The notes beneath the pieces were generated by a model that saw nothing but the letters and a program-made list of their open reading frames with translations, was not told the DNA's origin and made no database searches. Below are positions 3,910 to 64,000 of a stretch of DNA of 64,000 nt, one piece after another. The position numbers were made by a program, and so were the translations under genes. The stretch comes from a phage. Position 1 is the first letter of the stretch, and each line of letters opens with the position of its first letter. Location of the stretch: sequence record PV806337.1, one strand, 5' to 3'.

Positions 3910-4705
3910 AAGGTCTACCCTCTAAATGAGCTTCTACACGAGCAATAAAATCAGGATCACTAAAAGCATCTACCGCACCTTTACTCCAGTAAGGGACACC
4001 ACGTTCTTCCAGCTGGTACATCTCACTACGAGTCATACCTTGATAGCCCGGTTCCGCCGCGAGGGCACTATCATAGTAGTTAACTACCATAAATTTCGCA
4101 GCAGTCCTATTAAGAACAGGAAATAATTCCCAGTAGAAGTTAATTACTTGGTTAGAGCAACCAACCACAATGATCATATCTTGACTGGTAATACCATCAA
4201 AAACATTATACATTTCTGCGTATGCAGGAGCATGCTCTCCAAAGAAGATTACATTAGGTTTAACCCATTTATAATCATCTGGATCAATAGAATTGTATCC
4301 TACATCAATAATCCGTTTATTGCTACTATTGTAGCTATCAGCTACAACAACCTCTTTTAAATATCCGTGAATATGCAGAATGTCACTATGTGGAACGCCA
4401 GCACGCTCAATAAGGTCATCAACGTTGGTAGTCAAGTTTACTACTTGACCTGGATATTGTTTATACCATTCACCAATACGCAAATGCGCAAGATTGGGTT
4501 CAACAGTTTTTAGCTCTTCACGACGCTTGTTGTAAAACATATGGGTTTTATGATAAAAATTACCACGAAAGGCATGAATATTACATACTTCTTCTAGATC
4601 ATAGTCATCCCACAATGCTTTACCACTAGCAGTATCAGTACGGAAGGCTCGTACACCACTTTCAACACTCAAACCCGCACCACTAATAATAATTAATCTA
4701 CGCAT
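3869..4705 (-). CDS. Sir2-family (sirtuin-like) NAD-dependent deacetylase / ADP-ribosyltransferase-like protein
   Basis: ORF track 278 aa; motifs GAGLSVESG..FR, TTNVDDL, IHG, VIFFGE, VVGCS match sirtuin core; no Zn-binding Cys pairs seen. Confidence 0.7.
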   Translation of the reverse strand: MRRLIIISGAGLSVESGVRAFRTDTASGKALWDDYDLEEVCNIHAFRGNFYHKTHMFYNKRREELKTVEPNLAHLRIGEWYKQYPGQVVNLTTNVDDLIERAGVPHSDILHIHGYLKEVVVADSYNSSNKRIIDVGYNSIDPDDYKWVKPNVIFFGEHAPAYAEMYNVFDGITSQDMIIVVGCSNQVINFYWELFPVLNRTAAKFMVVNYYDSALAAEPGYQGMTRSEMYQLEERGVPYWSKGAVDAFSDPDFIARVEAHLEGRPYVSRSKGNRYVHS

Positions 4706-57656: not shown

Positions 57657-59327
57657 ATGATTATTTCCGCAGAAAAACAAACCGTTATCCTGAAAATGGC
57701 CGCTGACTTTAATTTCTATGGTAAACGTCTGCGCGCTACTAAGCTGGAAGTCTGCGACGATATATCAAAAGCGGTTTACGATACTACAAAACACTCCACC
57801 GCCATTTGTGATTGGTTGGAAGCAAATAAACCAGCGAAACCAAAAGCGGCAAAAGTAGCAAAAGCCATTAAAAATGATGAGCGCCCAGAAGCGGCTGGGA
57901 TTGTTTCTAGTACGGTGGAGCAATGGGAAGTAAAACAAGGTAAACGCTTTATTATTACATCGATTCAGAATAATACTTTCCCACATAAAAACTTTTTAGC
58001 CTCACTGGAGCAATTTGCTAAATATATCGGTGCTGATTTGCTTGTTTCTAAGTATATTTATAATAAAAACGGTTTTCAAAATGGGGAAGGTGCGGATGGA
58101 ATCAAATATGATTCCGCGTTCGATAAATATATTTGCAGCAAAAACGTGTTTTTAAATAACCGCCGCTTTGCTTTTATGGCTGAAATTAATGTTTTGCCAA
58201 CCGCAGATTATCCGCTTTCTGGATTCGCTGAAACTGCAACGGCGCTTAATCTTGAAGGTCTGGCAATTGGTCACGCCAAAATTACCGCCGAAAGCGTGCC
58301 AGCTTTAAAAGGTGAAGTAGTGCGCCGCATGTATTCAACCGGAACGGCAACGCTCAAAAACTACATTCAGCAGAAAGCAGGGCAAAAAGCCGAAGCGCTG
58401 CATAATTTCGGTGCGCTTATTGTTGAGTTCGACGAGGACGGGGAATTTTTTGTTCGCCAGCTTGAAACAATGGACGAAAGCGGGGTGTTTTATGATCTGA
58501 ACGTTTGCGCTACTCCTGCCGGATGCTATGAGACATCGGGGCATGTTTTAGGCTTGCAGTATGGCGATATTCACGCCGAAAAATTAGATGAGGAGTGCGC
58601 CGCCGCATCTTGGGGGCATGGTGATACTTATGGGCTAGTAGATATTCTTAAACCAAAATATCAGTTTGTGCATGACGTTCATGATTTTACATCCCGCAAT
58701 CATCATAACCGCGCATCCGGTGTATTCCTAGCGAAACAATATGCCGCCGGACGTGATAAAGTTCTGGATGATCTTATCGATACGGGGCGCGTACTGGAAT
58801 CAATGGAGCGCGATTTTAGTCAAACAATCATTGTTGAATCGAATCACGATTTGGCGCTATCCCGTTGGCTTGATGATCGTAATGCTAACATCAAAGACGA
58901 TCCAGCAAACGCCGAGTTATATCACCGCCTGAATGCTGCAATTTACGCGGCAATCGGTGAACACGACGAAACGTTTAACGTGCTAGATTATGCGTTGCGC
59001 AAGGTTGCAGGTTGTGAATTTAACGCCATTTTCCTGACCACTGATCAATCTTTCAAGATTGCAGGCATTGAATGCGGCGTACACGGTCACAATGGCATTA
59101 ACGGCAGTCGTGGCAATCCTAAACAATTTAAAAAATTGGGCAAGTTAAACACGGGGCATACCCATACCGCCAGCATTTATGGCGGCGTATATACCGCTGG
59201 CGTAGCTGGTAGTCTGGATATGGGCTACAACGTTGGCGCGTCAAGTTGGACGCAGACGCATTTAATTACCTATGCAAACGGTCAACGCACTTTGATCGAC
59301 TTTAAAAACGGTAAATTCTTTGCGTAA
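57657..59327 (+). CDS. A1: pre-early A1-like protein (metallophosphoesterase-type)
   Basis: ORF track 556 aa (matches recalled size of T5 A1); GDIHAEK and GHNGINGSRGN phosphoesterase-like motifs; next to A2- and dmp-like genes. Confidence 0.6.
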   Translation: MIISAEKQTVILKMAADFNFYGKRLRATKLEVCDDISKAVYDTTKHSTAICDWLEANKPAKPKAAKVAKAIKNDERPEAAGIVSSTVEQWEVKQGKRFIITSIQNNTFPHKNFLASLEQFAKYIGADLLVSKYIYNKNGFQNGEGADGIKYDSAFDKYICSKNVFLNNRRFAFMAEINVLPTADYPLSGFAETATALNLEGLAIGHAKITAESVPALKGEVVRRMYSTGTATLKNYIQQKAGQKAEALHNFGALIVEFDEDGEFFVRQLETMDESGVFYDLNVCATPAGCYETSGHVLGLQYGDIHAEKLDEECAAASWGHGDTYGLVDILKPKYQFVHDVHDFTSRNHHNRASGVFLAKQYAAGRDKVLDDLIDTGRVLESMERDFSQTIIVESNHDLALSRWLDDRNANIKDDPANAELYHRLNAAIYAAIGEHDETFNVLDYALRKVAGCEFNAIFLTTDQSFKIAGIECGVHGHNGINGSRGNPKQFKKLGKLNTGHTHTASIYGGVYTAGVAGSLDMGYNVGASSWTQTHLITYANGQRTLIDFKNGKFFA

Positions 59328-59383
59328 TTAAATTATTTCCCTAGCGGCTTGAAATATAGCCGCTATTACAGGAGTCACAAAAA

Positions 59384-59641
59384 ATGAAAGTTACATTACC
59401 CAAAACATTGGACGAAAAAGTATTCATTTCACCGGATGAAATGGAATCTGATAAAGTTTACAGCTTCGGGCCTATCCTAGCCGCTAAAACTAATACTGAT
59501 GGTATTATTTCCGTCGATTCCCGTGATAATGATGTTGTTCCTTTTGATGACGATGGCGCTTTTTATGAGTGGCTAAGCGATAATAATTTACCCGTAAACG
59601 GTGAATTAACGCCGTACCAGATGCAGATTATTATCAAATAA
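59384..59641 (+). CDS. hypothetical acidic protein
   Basis: ORF track 85 aa. Confidence 0.5.
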   Translation: MKVTLPKTLDEKVFISPDEMESDKVYSFGPILAAKTNTDGIISVDSRDNDVVPFDDDGAFYEWLSDNNLPVNGELTPYQMQIIIK

Positions 59642-59679
59642 ATTAAATCCATTATTAAACTAATTGGGGTTTTATAAAT

Positions 59680-60072
59680 ATGAAAAAGCAAAATATTCCA
59701 TTCGATCGCGCTCAATCTTCCATTGTTCTGGTTTATTCTAATGGCGAACGTTACCACGTCGAGGCGGGGCACGTTATTGATGAACTACTAGACTTTAATG
59801 ACGCTTTGCAGGTTACTACCTTTGCCTATACGCAAGGCCGCGCAAGTAGTTACATTAAGGCCGCAGGCGTTTATGTTGACACGGTGAAACAAGAAACGAT
59901 TATCATCGACGCCGTAAAATCCGGCCTAGCCTTTGCAGTTGTCGCGCCTTGCCCCGCTTGCCTTGATGATCAATTGATCAGCGCAAAAGTATATACTTGT
60001 GCGGGGATTCGTTCCAGCGTATCCGGTGAAGATGTTAGTTTTATTGCCGATGCGTTGGCTTATGGTCTTTAA
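59680..60072 (+). CDS. A2: pre-early A2-like protein
   Basis: ORF track 130 aa; position between A1-like and dmp-like genes; assignment by synteny and size only. Confidence 0.45.
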   Translation: MKKQNIPFDRAQSSIVLVYSNGERYHVEAGHVIDELLDFNDALQVTTFAYTQGRASSYIKAAGVYVDTVKQETIIIDAVKSGLAFAVVAPCPACLDDQLISAKVYTCAGIRSSVSGEDVSFIADALAYGL

Positions 60073-60151
60073 TAGTTAATTTATTATTACCCGCTTATAA
60101 ATAGCGGGTAATGCTGAATAAACTAAATCCCTTTAACGGAGAATGTAACAA

Positions 60152-60886
60152 ATGAGTAAAGCTATTATGAATATTTCCCGCAGCTTCCCGCATATTTCCC
60201 GCGTCATGATTTGGGATCTGGACGGCACTATCATTAATTCTTTCCATCGTGTAGCACCCTGCTTTGATAGCGAGGGCAATTTAGATTTAAATAAGTATAA
60301 AAATGAAGCCTGCAAACATGATTTAATAATGCAAGATACTTTATTGCCCCTTGTTACATATATGCGCCAGTGCATGAATGACGCAAATACATTAAACATT
60401 ATTTGCACCGCTCGACTGATGAGCAAGTCGGATTATTATTTCTTGCGTAAACAAGGCTTGCGCGGTCGTGATAAAAGCAATATCCGCGTTTTTTCCCGCG
60501 ACACACTGCATAAATATTTTGAAGCTGATAAAGTTAGCGAAATTTACCATAGTAAAGACGCTATATATAAAAGCCATTATTTTGAGCTATTTAAACAGTT
60601 ATATCCGAACGCTGATTTTACGATGATTGACGATCATAAAGGTGTGCTATCGGCGGCGGCATCATACGGATTTAAAACGCTGGACGCGCAAGCTATTAAC
60701 GATATTCTATCGATTGGGGTTACATTGATAGGTGAAACCTTTATTGATGAATCTCTTGAGGATGATAATGATTATCAGTTCCTAGCCGACCGCCTGCAAT
60801 TATGTTGGGAAGGTATGACCGAAGAAGAACGCGCAGAATATAGTTGCAGCCCGCAACAATATATTGAGAAATTAAAAGTTGCGTAA
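60152..60886 (+). CDS. dmp: 5'-deoxyribonucleotidase (HAD-like)
   Basis: ORF track 244 aa; N-terminal MIWDLDGTIINS HAD motif; size and synteny as recalled for T5 dmp. Confidence 0.6.
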   Translation: MSKAIMNISRSFPHISRVMIWDLDGTIINSFHRVAPCFDSEGNLDLNKYKNEACKHDLIMQDTLLPLVTYMRQCMNDANTLNIICTARLMSKSDYYFLRKQGLRGRDKSNIRVFSRDTLHKYFEADKVSEIYHSKDAIYKSHYFELFKQLYPNADFTMIDDHKGVLSAAASYGFKTLDAQAINDILSIGVTLIGETFIDESLEDDNDYQFLADRLQLCWEGMTEEERAEYSCSPQQYIEKLKVA

Positions 60887-61037: not shown

Positions 61038-61283
61038 TTAGCGCATAGAAGGGTCATCAAACCTGTGTTCTGGTCTGAACTCACGGAATCTCTTTCGCGA
61101 CGCCCGAGATCCATCCGACCACTCCCGCTCAAACTCCGCACGTTTCTCATCAAACTTCCGCTCCCTTTCCGCAATCTCCCGCGATACTTCCGCAGTATAC
61201 TTACGATGCTTGTTAATAGCCGCAGTCATTCCGAAAACTCCCGCGAGTACCCCGATAATAAAAGCAATTACAATACTAAACAT
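61038..61283 (-). CDS. small membrane protein
   Basis: ORF track 81 aa; N-terminal TM then charged tail. Confidence 0.45.
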   Translation of the reverse strand: MFSIVIAFIIGVLAGVFGMTAAINKHRKYTAEVSREIAERERKFDEKRAEFEREWSDGSRASRKRFREFRPEHRFDDPSMR

Positions 61284-61470
61284 CTAATTCCCTCTCAATT
61301 TGCAGAATACGGGTACTATCACAACGTTGGAGTTCTACTAATTTTTCTATGGCAAATTGTTGCTGCTTTACCTGGGCCTCTAGAGTTTTTAGGCGAACAT
61401 ACGCGGTGTAAGAAATAATGAAAACTGCCCAGACTAGTATTACTATTAGTGTAGCTACCACTTCCATCAT
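61276..61470 (-). CDS. small membrane protein
   Basis: ORF track 64 aa; N-terminal TM. Confidence 0.45.
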   Translation of the reverse strand: MMEVVATLIVILVWAVFIISYTAYVRLKTLEAQVKQQQFAIEKLVELQRCDSTRILQIERELDV

Positions 61471-61880
61471 TTACGTTTCTCCAATAATAAGGTTTCAATT
61501 CTAGCTAAGTGATTATCTAAAATACATTGCCCAGTAATAACAACCCCTAGTAGTGCAATAATTATCCATTCCATTAAATCCACCCCGCCATAGCTGCTAA
61601 CCAAAAACCTACGAAAATAAAGAATAGGATAGTTCCGAATCCAAAGCTATTAATCCAGCTATCGTACACTTCTCCACGTCTGCTCTTTCTTTTGTTTGAC
61701 ATATCTTTCATGCTCCTATAAATATGGTATTTTAAAATATTTTATAATTTGTGTAATAACCAACCATGCTTGTGACTTCCTAGAAGGACTTCTACTTTTC
61801 TTACATAGTGGTTTCTGCCAATATACCATCCAAAAAATAAAAAATTTAGTTTACTTGGATGTCTTTTTGCTTTATACTAA

Positions 61881-62147
61881 TTACAGGTAGTTAGATTGCT
61901 CTAGTTTAAATTTACAATCACCATATTTAAGGTCAAACTGACTGAGATCCCACCACCCAAACTTAGTACGGAGCTGTACTACTGGGAAGCGATCTCCCTT
62001 AATACGAACTTTTTGAATCTTGAGGCCGTAATGTTCTTCTCCCGCACCGCCAAAAGATTTTACAAATCCAGTACAAAATGGTTTGGGAGCAGGTGCACAA
62101 CCAGATAACATAACTGCGGCAACTAGTGCAATCACAAACTTTTTCAT
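61881..62147 (-). CDS. llp: lytic-conversion-type lipoprotein (Llp-like)
   Basis: ORF track 88 aa; lipobox MLSGC; GGAGAG RBS; divergent from adjacent receptor-binding gene. Confidence 0.6.
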   Translation of the reverse strand: MKKFVIALVAAVMLSGCAPAPKPFCTGFVKSFGGAGEEHYGLKIQKVRIKGDRFPVVQLRTKFGWWDLSQFDLKYGDCKFKLEQSNYL

Positions 62148-62232
62148 ATTTATCTCTCCATTTCTAATTTATGAATCTATTATAGCAAAATAGAGGGATG
62201 AAAGCAAATACATTTTTATAATAGGAGATTAT

Positions 62233-63990
62233 ATGGGTTTTTTCGCTGGAAAATATAGCGATGGTAAGACCGTACTATCCTTAAATACTGAATCTGGTGG
62301 TGACATTAATCGTCACTATAGTCCAAATAATAATAGTATTTTTCATAGTGATATGCCATTTGTTCTAGTTGATGGTACTTATGAGGTAGGATTAGGTGAT
62401 GCCGGGAATGGGTTTTTCGTATGTCAGATGCCTCCTGATATAGTAAATATTAAATCTAATGATCCTGGTAGAGTTATACTAACTGCTATTGAAATTAACG
62501 GCACTCACAGAGCTTTTCTTAATGGTACTCAGAGTAAGGTTGGTCAAACTATAGTTGCCACTCAAGCAGATCCCTTTAGATCTTTTGCTAGTGTTTCTCA
62601 AACCAGTGGATTTGCCTTTGGTAATAGTCTAGCATCCGGCACTTATAATTATAATCCCTCTCTAGGGCACGAAGAATCTATCTCTAGGAGTGGTACAGGG
62701 GGTACTACGTTACATAGTACCTACCATGGGATAGTTAGGCCCGGTGCGGGAGCTCCTGTAGGTATTACTGTTGCAGAAGCTTTTGCACAATTAGGTTTTC
62801 CTACTAATAGTAGCACAGTACCTATAGATGGCAATAACCCGTACTATTGGGATCCTGGATGGATATCACCTCTAGGAGCAGCGCATAGAGGGCATGATTG
62901 GTTTTATGTCTGCAATTCTAATATACGTGGATATGGTGGGGTTAGGCAAGGGCTCCCAGGTAATGTAAATACTATGTACCACGACGGTGGGAACAGATTT
63001 GTTTGTAGGGGATCTACTACTAATCTGGCCAACCAGTCTGGCAATCCTACGGTAATACAGGACTGGTATAATATAACTCCTACTAAGGTTATTTGGTATG
63101 TTCTTAATTTAAGGTACTCTAATGGTGGAATGAGTATTTCAGGCAACCCCTTTACTGGTTCTGATATTCTTATATCGCCTTCTAACTTCATAATTAAAGG
63201 GGTGAGTCTCCCTAATACCGGATATAAATTTATAAATCAGAATGCTTTTGGTAACCTAGGTTACCGTCCTGATATGGAGTATATAGGAAATAACGCAGCG
63301 TATACCGGGGTTTTTGGTGATACCACGGCAAGATGTGAACTTGTAGGGTCTAGTAATGGAGGGTTGTGGTCTCCTGTAGATTATGGAGGAGCTAAATCTC
63401 AAATTAGTATTTATAGATTCGGAGTAGGTAAACAGTGGTATGTAAACTCTAACGATAATACTATTGGTAATGAGCATGGAGTTGTTTGGGGACCCTCAGC
63501 AGTTCCACTGCGACTTTTTGGTGGAAATGTAGGTAGTTCTTATATGGGAGATGATATTACTCCCAGCTACCCAGGAACGGGTGATAGATACGTTGGTTTA
63601 TCAACTATTGGGCTAGGTATACCAGGCGGAAATGCTACAGTAATTCTTACTACTGAAGTTATATCAGGTAATCTTAATTGTGCGGGTGTTCCAGCTAATA
63701 CATGGAATAATGGTGTGTTTCAAGTGCAAGGAAGAAGAGCATATAGCTATAGCGGCGGGGATGCAATATTCCACCAGATTTTAACGCTACCTGTGGGCTA
63801 TCTAGTACCTTTTCATACTACATCTGCTTTTAGATATACACCTAACAATGCTCTAAGTAGAAACAGTTTTATATACACTGTTAAAAATTTAGGAAATGGA
63901 AATGTAGAGTTAGGAGTAGTTATGCACGTGAGTTTGGGTAGTGCAGTTTTCCTACCTAGATTAAGAGTAACAGTTCAACGCCTTACCTAA
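62233..63990 (+). CDS. oad: receptor-binding tail protein (pb5/Oad-like)
   Basis: ORF track 585 aa; AGGAG RBS; Gly/Asn/Ser/Thr-rich; N-terminus MGFFAGK..IFHSDM, internal KVIWYV.NL and FIIKGV, C-terminal QRLT resemble T5 pb5 as recalled. Confidence 0.65.
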   Translation: MGFFAGKYSDGKTVLSLNTESGGDINRHYSPNNNSIFHSDMPFVLVDGTYEVGLGDAGNGFFVCQMPPDIVNIKSNDPGRVILTAIEINGTHRAFLNGTQSKVGQTIVATQADPFRSFASVSQTSGFAFGNSLASGTYNYNPSLGHEESISRSGTGGTTLHSTYHGIVRPGAGAPVGITVAEAFAQLGFPTNSSTVPIDGNNPYYWDPGWISPLGAAHRGHDWFYVCNSNIRGYGGVRQGLPGNVNTMYHDGGNRFVCRGSTTNLANQSGNPTVIQDWYNITPTKVIWYVLNLRYSNGGMSISGNPFTGSDILISPSNFIIKGVSLPNTGYKFINQNAFGNLGYRPDMEYIGNNAAYTGVFGDTTARCELVGSSNGGLWSPVDYGGAKSQISIYRFGVGKQWYVNSNDNTIGNEHGVVWGPSAVPLRLFGGNVGSSYMGDDITPSYPGTGDRYVGLSTIGLGIPGGNATVILTTEVISGNLNCAGVPANTWNNGVFQVQGRRAYSYSGGDAIFHQILTLPVGYLVPFHTTSAFRYTPNNALSRNSFIYTVKNLGNGNVELGVVMHVSLGSAVFLPRLRVTVQRLT

Positions 63991-64000
63991 AGGAGGAAAT

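What the first reader, a model, noticed from the sequence alone, without database searches (positions are those of the whole stretch)
61881..63990. Divergent Llp-like lipoprotein and a diverged pb5-like receptor-binding protein
The 585-aa tail protein shares N-terminal, internal and C-terminal blocks with T5 pb5 as I recall it (MGFFAGK..IFHSDM, KVIWYV.NL, FIIKGV, ...QRLT), but is shorter and different through most of its central region. That implies a different outer-membrane receptor from FhuA. The divergently transcribed 88-aa lipoprotein (lipobox LSGC) is positioned like Llp, which blocks the receptor against superinfection. Together they form a receptor-specificity and superinfection-exclusion module.
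Basis: partly seen in the sequence, partly recalled or inferred. Interest (0 to 1): 0.55.

Follow-up and report, generated by a model that had tools for sequence, protein, structure and literature searches.

The report
Known BtuB-type T5-like receptor module

The parts
61881..62147 (-). llp: the 88-aa BF23-type receptor-blocking (superinfection exclusion / lytic conversion) lipoprotein precursor
   Evidence: ORF. 98.9% identical to BF23 Llp (only V44I), 100% to SPC35 and 97.7% to DT571/2 Llp. phrog_1119 at E 1.7e-26. The exact sequence is public as ADW80124.1 on 66 contigs. The published BF23 llp cloning primers match at 61697-61717 (0 mismatches) and 62119-62159 (1 mismatch) (primers quoted).
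62097..62147 (-). Signal peptide and lipobox (MKKFVIALVAAVMLSGC; lipidated Cys17, Ala at +2, which by the standard E. coli sorting rule sends the protein to the outer membrane)
   Evidence: Pfam LPAM_1 at E 5e-5. G16 and C17 are invariant in 12 family members, as are C25 and C78, the putative intramolecular disulfide. T5 Llp has the analogous C11-C58 disulfide in mature numbering.
62148..62232 (.). 85-bp divergent intergenic region carrying the llp and RBP translation starts and, by homology with BF23 and T5 annotation, the early (llp) and late (RBP) promoters
   Evidence: Nearly identical to the BF23, DT571/2 and IrisVonRoten spacers and recognisably conserved with T5 (mean column identity 92% over 5 sequences). 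Divergent early and late promoters are annotated in T5 and BF23. The simple sigma-70 scan found nothing above chance here.
62233..63990 (+). rbp (hrs/oad/pb5 homologue): the 585-aa receptor-binding tail-tip protein, chee24/IrisVonRoten allele of the BtuB-binding clade
   Evidence: 99.5% identical to chee24 (3 substitutions), 97.3% IrisVonRoten, 97.1% Cit2, 73.7% DT571/2, 72.6% SPC35, 68.3% BF23 and 30-34% T5 pb5. phrog_4815 at E 1.5e-273. The only solved relatives are T5 pb5 entries 8b14 and 8a8c. The exact sequence is already in the Logan assemblies.
62554..62580 (+). RBP residues 108-116: variable segment equivalent to pb5 loop L1 (T5 Gln115 maps to residue 114)
   Evidence: Low conservation among four BtuB-type allele representatives, and a 1-aa indel relative to BF23/SPC35. 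Loop definitions come from the FhuA-pb5 structure paper.
62725..62796 (+). RBP residues 165-188: variable segment equivalent to pb5 loop L2 (T5 Phe170 maps to residue 172)
   Evidence: loop definition.
62950..63054 (+). RBP residues 240-274: most variable central segment, with a 3-aa indel relative to BF23/SPC35 and 15- and 10-aa deletions relative to T5. It may correspond to pb5 L3; this is an inference.
63817..63849 (+). RBP residues 529-539: equivalent of pb5 loop L4 (T5 570-590). It is much shorter here than in T5 (T5 has 21 extra residues) and 7 residues shorter than in BF23/SPC35.
   Evidence: L4 definition.

Best explanation
The region is the host-recognition and lytic-conversion module of a Tequintavirus (T5-like siphovirus) of the BF23/DT57C/SPC35 type. 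The 585-aa protein is the single-copy receptor-binding protein at the tip of the central straight tail fibre. [quoted passage not shown] There it binds BtuB and makes it unusable as a receptor. This excludes superinfecting BtuB-dependent phages and protects progeny from adsorbing to debris. Shown here: the sequence identities and the gene arrangement. Shown in the literature for near-identical proteins: BtuB dependence of IrisVonRoten, DaisyDussoix, DT57C, BF23 and SPC35, and exclusion of BF23 and DT57C but not T5 by a 97.7-98.9% identical Llp. Inferred by analogy with T5 Llp-FhuA: that Llp binds the periplasmic face and plug of BtuB and closes extracellular loops by reverse allostery.
Against: This particular phage has no experimental data. 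The RBP differs by about 26-32% from the alleles studied in most detail (DT57C, BF23), mostly in the putative receptor-contact loops, so its exact contacts with BtuB could differ. The periplasmic plug-jamming mechanism has been demonstrated only for T5 Llp with FhuA. No BtuB-RBP or BtuB-Llp structure turned up among solved structures. One paper infers FhuA for the same RBP allele (Cit2), but the identity it rests on does not reproduce.
Confidence: 0.93

Rival explanations
1. The RBP binds FhuA like T5 pb5. This is what the Cit2 paper inferred for a 97% identical RBP, with an Llp that has become decoupled from the RBP's specificity.
For: PMC12980165 states that the Cit2 RBP is 96.9% identical to the T5 RBP and infers FhuA. 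The Cit2 RBP is 97.1% identical to the window RBP.
Against: Direct alignment gives only 31.7-36.2% identity between the Cit2 RBP and authentic T5 pb5, and 30-34% for the window RBP. The paper's other figures (SPC35 71.8%, BF23 66.7%, DT57C 73.2%, S131 30.8%) match mine and place Cit2 in the BtuB clade, so the 'T5' comparator was probably mislabelled. IrisVonRoten, which carries this allele, is listed as BtuB-dependent. JLBYU40 (RBP 97.3% identical) was isolated on a K-12 deletion host whose description is truncated in the output.
Confidence: 0.02
2. This RBP allele has shifted to a different TonB-dependent transporter (for example FepA, as in H8/S124), or needs a second receptor in addition to BtuB.
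For: The putative receptor-contact loops are the most divergent parts compared with BF23 and DT57C. The allele occurs in phages isolated on E. coli, Salmonella, Shigella and Citrobacter.
Against: Only 28% identity to the FepA-type RBP of S124. The allele is linked to a BF23-type Llp in every relative examined. BASEL lists BtuB for phages with this allele. DT57C, which is equally divergent from BF23, still uses BtuB.
Confidence: 0.03
3. The 88-aa lipoprotein is only a positional analogue of T5 Llp. It would be evolutionarily unrelated and would block BtuB by a different mechanism, such as binding from the outside or steric masking.
Confidence: 0.3

Closest known systems
Phage BF23 hrs/llp module (Hrs receptor-binding protein plus BtuB-blocking lipoprotein; Mondigler et al. 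2006; genome OR083247)
   Same: Same gene order and divergent orientation. The Llp is 98.9% identical (one substitution). The intergenic region is nearly identical. The RBP is homologous over its full length (68.3%). The receptor is BtuB.
   Different: The RBP is a different allele: 585 aa against 595 aa, with only 34-57% identity across residues 100-250 and indels in the L1, central and L4 loop equivalents.
chee24 / IrisVonRoten (Bas32) / DaisyDussoix (Bas31) / T5_ev219 / Cit2 RBP allele group
   Same: RBP identity is 97-99.5% and Llp identity 96.6-98.9%, with 94-98% nucleotide identity over the whole 2.5-kb module. BASEL lists BtuB as the terminal receptor.
   Different: Three amino-acid substitutions relative to chee24 (N33A, I211M, V550I). 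The surrounding genome is only about 93% identical to its best matches, so this is a new mosaic backbone carrying a known module.
DT57C / DT571/2 rbp-llp module (Golomidova et al. 2016; DT57C cryo-EM, Nat Commun 2023)
   Same: BtuB-dependent. The Llp is 97.7% identical and has been shown to exclude BF23-type phages but not T5. The same pattern is seen of a conserved llp next to a mosaic, diverged rbp.
   Different: The RBP is 73.7% identical, with divergence spread across the protein.
Phage T5 pb5 (oad) and Llp (PDB 8B14/8A8C for FhuA-pb5; 8A60 and 7QJF for Llp)
   Same: The RBPs are homologous over the full length and share N-terminal, internal and C-terminal blocks. The module architecture is the same. 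The lipoproteins are of similar size, have the same lipobox and Cys pattern, fall in the same PHROG and have a best-matching fold.
   Different: The RBP is only 30% identical and 55 aa shorter, and the L4 loop equivalent is largely deleted. The receptor is FhuA in T5 and BtuB here. The mature part of Llp has no significant pairwise similarity. DT57C-type Llp does not protect against T5.

Membership tests
BtuB-binding RBPs of T5-like phages (BF23 Hrs / DT57C / EPS7 / SPC35 clade within phrog_4815) | Full-length homology to Hrs/pb5-family tail-tip RBPs | tested here: met
   phrog_4815 at E 1.5e-273, covering 1-585 of the protein and 1-650 of the profile. 68-74% identity to BF23, SPC35 and DT571/2.
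BtuB-binding RBPs of T5-like phages (BF23 Hrs / DT57C / EPS7 / SPC35 clade within phrog_4815) | Groups with RBPs of experimentally BtuB-dependent phages rather than with the FhuA (T5) or FepA (H8/S124) types | tested here: met
   97.3% to IrisVonRoten, and in the same 90% cluster as DaisyDussoix; both are listed as BtuB. By contrast 30% to T5 pb5 and 28% to the S124 RBP.
BtuB-binding RBPs of T5-like phages (BF23 Hrs / DT57C / EPS7 / SPC35 clade within phrog_4815) | Locus position: divergent from llp and immediately upstream of the small terminase subunit gene | tested here: inconclusive
   Divergence from llp is confirmed. The window ends 10 nt after the RBP stop, so terS is not visible. In chee24, which is 98% identical, terS starts 10 nt downstream.
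BtuB-binding RBPs of T5-like phages (BF23 Hrs / DT57C / EPS7 / SPC35 clade within phrog_4815) | Infection depends on BtuB | not testable with these tools
   Requires plating on btuB, fhuA and fepA deletion strains.
BF23-type receptor-blocking lipoprotein Llp | Signal peptide with a lipobox and an outer-membrane sorting signal | tested here: met
   LSGC lipobox, Cys17, Ala at +2. Pfam LPAM_1 at E 5e-5. Invariant in the family.
BF23-type receptor-blocking lipoprotein Llp | Sequence identity to the functionally characterised BF23 and DT57C Llp | tested here: met
   98.9% to BF23 and 97.7% to DT571/2. Functional data are quoted.
BF23-type receptor-blocking lipoprotein Llp | Two further conserved cysteines for an intramolecular disulfide | tested here: met
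   C25 and C78 are invariant in 12 sequences at 59-98% identity. Actual disulfide formation was not tested.
BF23-type receptor-blocking lipoprotein Llp | Expression confers resistance to BtuB-dependent phages | not testable with these tools
   Requires cloning and plating assays.
T5 Llp / Cor superinfection-exclusion lipoprotein family (FhuA-blocking) | Detectable homology of the mature domain | tested here: inconclusive
   Both proteins hit phrog_1119 over the full length. However, hhalign aligns only residues 1-29, BLASTP gives E 2e-4 helped by the signal peptide, and NCBIfam Cor scores 16.1 bits against a cutoff of 31.
T5 Llp / Cor superinfection-exclusion lipoprotein family (FhuA-blocking) | Same fold as T5 Llp | tested here: inconclusive
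T5 Llp / Cor superinfection-exclusion lipoprotein family (FhuA-blocking) | Blocks FhuA | not testable with these tools
   Literature on the 97.7% identical DT57C Llp reports no protection against T5, so this feature is probably not met.
T5 pb5 proper (FhuA-binding RBP) | High identity to pb5 across the receptor-inserting loops L1-L4 | tested here: not met
   30% overall and 18-34% in the central bins. The L4 equivalent is largely deleted.

The most novel reading that the evidence does not exclude
The BF23-type BtuB-blocking lipoprotein may be a true, very diverged homologue of T5 Llp and the Cor proteins, with the same small beta-barrel fold and the same disulfide. If so, a single phage lipoprotein superfamily has been retargeted from FhuA to BtuB, and it probably jams the plug of different TonB-dependent transporters from the periplasm. 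This would run against the repeated statement that the T5 and BF23 Llp proteins are non-homologous. It would generalise the reverse-allostery exclusion mechanism to BtuB.
Probability: 0.5. Interest if true: 0.35.

Novelty: already known. Interest (0 to 1): 0.1.

Why it matters
It matters little as a discovery. The module identifies the phage as a BtuB-dependent Tequintavirus. That is useful in practice for predicting receptor usage, designing phage cocktails and anticipating btuB-based resistance, but it is already covered by the BF23, DT57C, SPC35 and BASEL literature. The small added value is threefold. It corrects a published FhuA inference for this RBP allele group (Cit2). It shows that allelic variation is concentrated in the loop equivalents that contact the receptor. 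It also gives weak structural evidence linking BF23-type Llp to the T5 Llp/Cor family.

Tried and rejected
- Pfam and NCBIfam have no model for the RBP. For the lipoprotein they give only the lipobox model and a sub-threshold Cor hit.
- The sigma-70 promoter and terminator scan of 61600-62400 found nothing above chance: 4 promoter-like sites against 3.1 expected, none in the spacer, and no terminators. Promoter assignment therefore rests only on homology to annotated T5 and BF23 spacers.
- Single-sequence AlphaFold of the lipoprotein was unusable at pLDDT 47. It was redone with a 12-sequence alignment, giving pLDDT 83.
- hhalign of the Llp family profile against T5 Llp aligned only the signal peptide and the first Cys.
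- The large protein search found only 11 clusters for the lipoprotein, all at 59% identity or more, so no bridging sequences to T5 Llp or Cor were obtained.
- I checked whether a FepA-type phage carries a BF23-type Llp, which would break the RBP/Llp linkage. The hit 'vB_SenS_S124' is a different phage with a BF23-type RBP. The Gencay S124 has an unrelated annotated 'blocking protein'.
- I rejected the FhuA inference made for the Cit2 allele.

Full report
**Observation**

The ORF list and the sequence show an 88-aa ORF at 61881-62147 on the minus strand and a 585-aa ORF at 62233-63990 on the plus strand. They are divergently oriented across an 85-bp spacer.

The small protein begins MKKFVIALVAAVMLSGC. 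This is a canonical signal peptide with an LSGC lipobox (Pfam LPAM_1, E 5e-5).

The large protein aligns end to end with authentic T5 pb5 (640 aa, AY587007) at 30% identity, E 1e-56. IFHSDM, FIIKGV and the C-terminal QRLT are exact. The N-terminus is MGFFAGK here and MSFFAGK in T5. KVIWYVLNL here corresponds to KITWYVTNL in T5. In 50-aa bins, identity to pb5 falls to 18-34% through the centre.

**What it is**

Megablast of 61500-64000 finds 275 phage records, all T5-like (Tequintavirus and Epseptimavirus). Of these, 117 cover the whole 2.5 kb, and the best (chee24 and its siblings, and NG_A1) are 98.0% identical.

RBP identities at protein level:

| Phage | Identity to window RBP |
|---|---|
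| chee24 | 99.5% (three substitutions) |
| IrisVonRoten | 97.3% |
| Cit2 | 97.1% |
| DT571/2 | 73.7% |
| SPC35 | 72.6% |
| BF23 Hrs | 68.3% |
| T5 pb5 | 30% by BLASTP; 34% over MAFFT-aligned positions |

The lipoprotein is 100% identical to the SPC35 protein. It is 98.9% identical to BF23 Llp (only V44I), 97.7% to DT571/2 and IrisVonRoten, and 26% to T5 Llp.

Both exact sequences are already public. The Llp is ADW80124.1 and occurs on 66 contigs. The RBP sits in a 231-member 90% cluster that includes DaisyDussoix, phiAPCEc03, fp01 and LVR16A.

The published primers used to clone the BF23/DT57C llp gene match the window with 0 and 1 mismatches (primers quoted).

Synteny is that of T5, BF23, DT571/2 and chee24: A1, then dmp, then four small membrane ORFs, then llp, then rbp.

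**Receptor**

The literature is consistent.

- BF23 uses BtuB, and its Llp blocks BtuB (Mondigler 2006, summarised).
- Golomidova et al. 2016 showed that DT57C and DT571/2 use BtuB, because btuB deletion and IS-insertion mutants are resistant. They also showed that the DT57C Llp inhibits DT57C and BF23 but not T5.
- The BASEL S5 table lists BtuB as the terminal receptor for IrisVonRoten (Bas32) and DaisyDussoix (Bas31). PMC10373560 calls IrisVonRoten BtuB-dependent.
- A 2026 genome-wide screen found 23 BtuB-binding Demerecviridae whose RBP is about 30% identical to pb5. That is the figure measured here.
- The FepA-type RBP of S124 is only 28% identical.

The receptor is therefore almost certainly BtuB. 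This remains an inference by near-identity, not a test of this phage.

**A conflicting claim, resolved**

PMC12980165 reports that the Cit2 RBP is 96.9% identical to the T5 RBP. It infers FhuA and interprets the BF23-type Llp of Cit2 as a decoupling of the two genes.

A direct alignment does not support this. The Cit2 RBP is 97.1% identical to the window RBP and only 31.7-36.2% identical to authentic T5 pb5. The Cit2 Llp is identical to BF23 Llp. The paper's other identities agree with mine, so its 'T5' comparator was probably a mislabelled sequence. There is no decoupling, and this allele group belongs to the BtuB clade.

**How it most likely works**

By homology with the FhuA-pb5 cryo-EM structure, pb5 inserts four loops (L1 around Gln115, L2 around Phe170, L3, and L4 at 570-590) into the receptor lumen.

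Mapped onto the window protein, these fall at about residues 114, 172 and 529-539. Among four representatives of BtuB-type alleles, the least conserved segments are 108-116, 165-188, 240-274 and 536-539, and all the indels lie there. Allelic variation is thus concentrated in the presumed receptor-contact loops, while the scaffold and the N- and C-termini are conserved.

The window allele is itself mosaic. It is 92-98% identical to SPC35 over residues 1-100 and 300-400, but 46-62% identical over residues 100-300 and 57-76% over residues 400-585. This is the recombination pattern already described by Golomidova et al..

For the lipoprotein, Ala at +2 predicts outer-membrane sorting (standard E. 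coli lipoprotein sorting rule). C25 and C78 are invariant and parallel the C11-C58 disulfide of mature T5 Llp. The T5 mechanism is periplasmic binding to a non-native plug conformation, which makes extracellular loops fold inward. It is the best available model, but for BtuB it is inferred, not shown.

**Is the lipoprotein a relative of T5 Llp?**

The literature says no. The evidence here is mixed.

In favour:
- Both proteins match phrog_1119 over its full length, at E 1.7e-26 and 1.1e-19.

Against:
- Foldseek finds nothing significant.
- hhalign aligns only residues 1-29.
- The NCBIfam Cor model is below its cutoff.

I rate distant homology with a shared mechanism at about even odds. A 2026 preprint reaches the same conclusion for T5 Llp and the Cor proteins, but does not consider BF23-type Llp.

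**Comparison and novelty**

The region is a member of the BF23-type hrs/llp module, specifically the chee24/IrisVonRoten RBP allele with a BF23/SPC35 Llp. It works like the T5 pb5/Llp module but is not a member of the FhuA-specific pair.

Nothing about it is new. The only unusual aspect is the genomic backbone, which is about 93% identical to its nearest relatives over 24 kb. That is normal mosaicism for this group.

**Verdict**

The finding is already known and the interest is low.

Noticed in passing
L008 (Citrobacter phage Cit2, OP745948) 680-2789; compare window 61881-63990: A 2026 paper (PMC12980165) reports the Cit2 RBP as 96.9% identical to the T5 RBP and infers FhuA usage and an RBP/Llp decoupling. 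Direct alignment gives 31.7-36.2% to authentic T5 pb5 and 97.1% to this window's BtuB-type RBP. The published inference looks like a reference mix-up.
   Followed up: yes
window 61038-61711 (-): Four small overlapping ORFs (81, 64, 45 and 45 aa as listed, hydrophobic) lie between dmp and llp on the llp strand. They are syntenic with T5 ORF148-151 and with the DT571/2 'putative membrane proteins'. Their function is unknown. They may be co-transcribed with llp.
   Followed up: partly
window 57657-60886 (+), relative to 61881-63990: The A1 DNA-transfer protein (57657-59327) and the dmp 5'-deoxyribonucleotidase (60152-60886) are terminal-repeat genes in T5 and BF23. They lie just upstream of the module, yet about 57 kb of further phage sequence precedes them in the window. 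This suggests the source assembly has a collapsed or circularly permuted terminal repeat rather than the true linear ends.
   Followed up: no
L010 (Salmonella phage S124, NC_048013) 4219-4530 (-): The ORF annotated 'receptor blocking protein, T5 Llp-like' next to the FepA-type RBP is 103 aa. It has no signal peptide or lipobox and no similarity to T5 or BF23 Llp. It may be a mis-called frame or a different kind of protein.
   Followed up: partly
window 62233-63990 compared with L003 (SPC35) 1128-2915: The window RBP is mosaic relative to SPC35. Identity is 92-98% in residues 1-100 and 90-92% in residues 300-400, but 46-62% in residues 100-300. This implies recombination breakpoints inside the RBP gene, while the adjacent llp is 100% identical.
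   Followed up: partly
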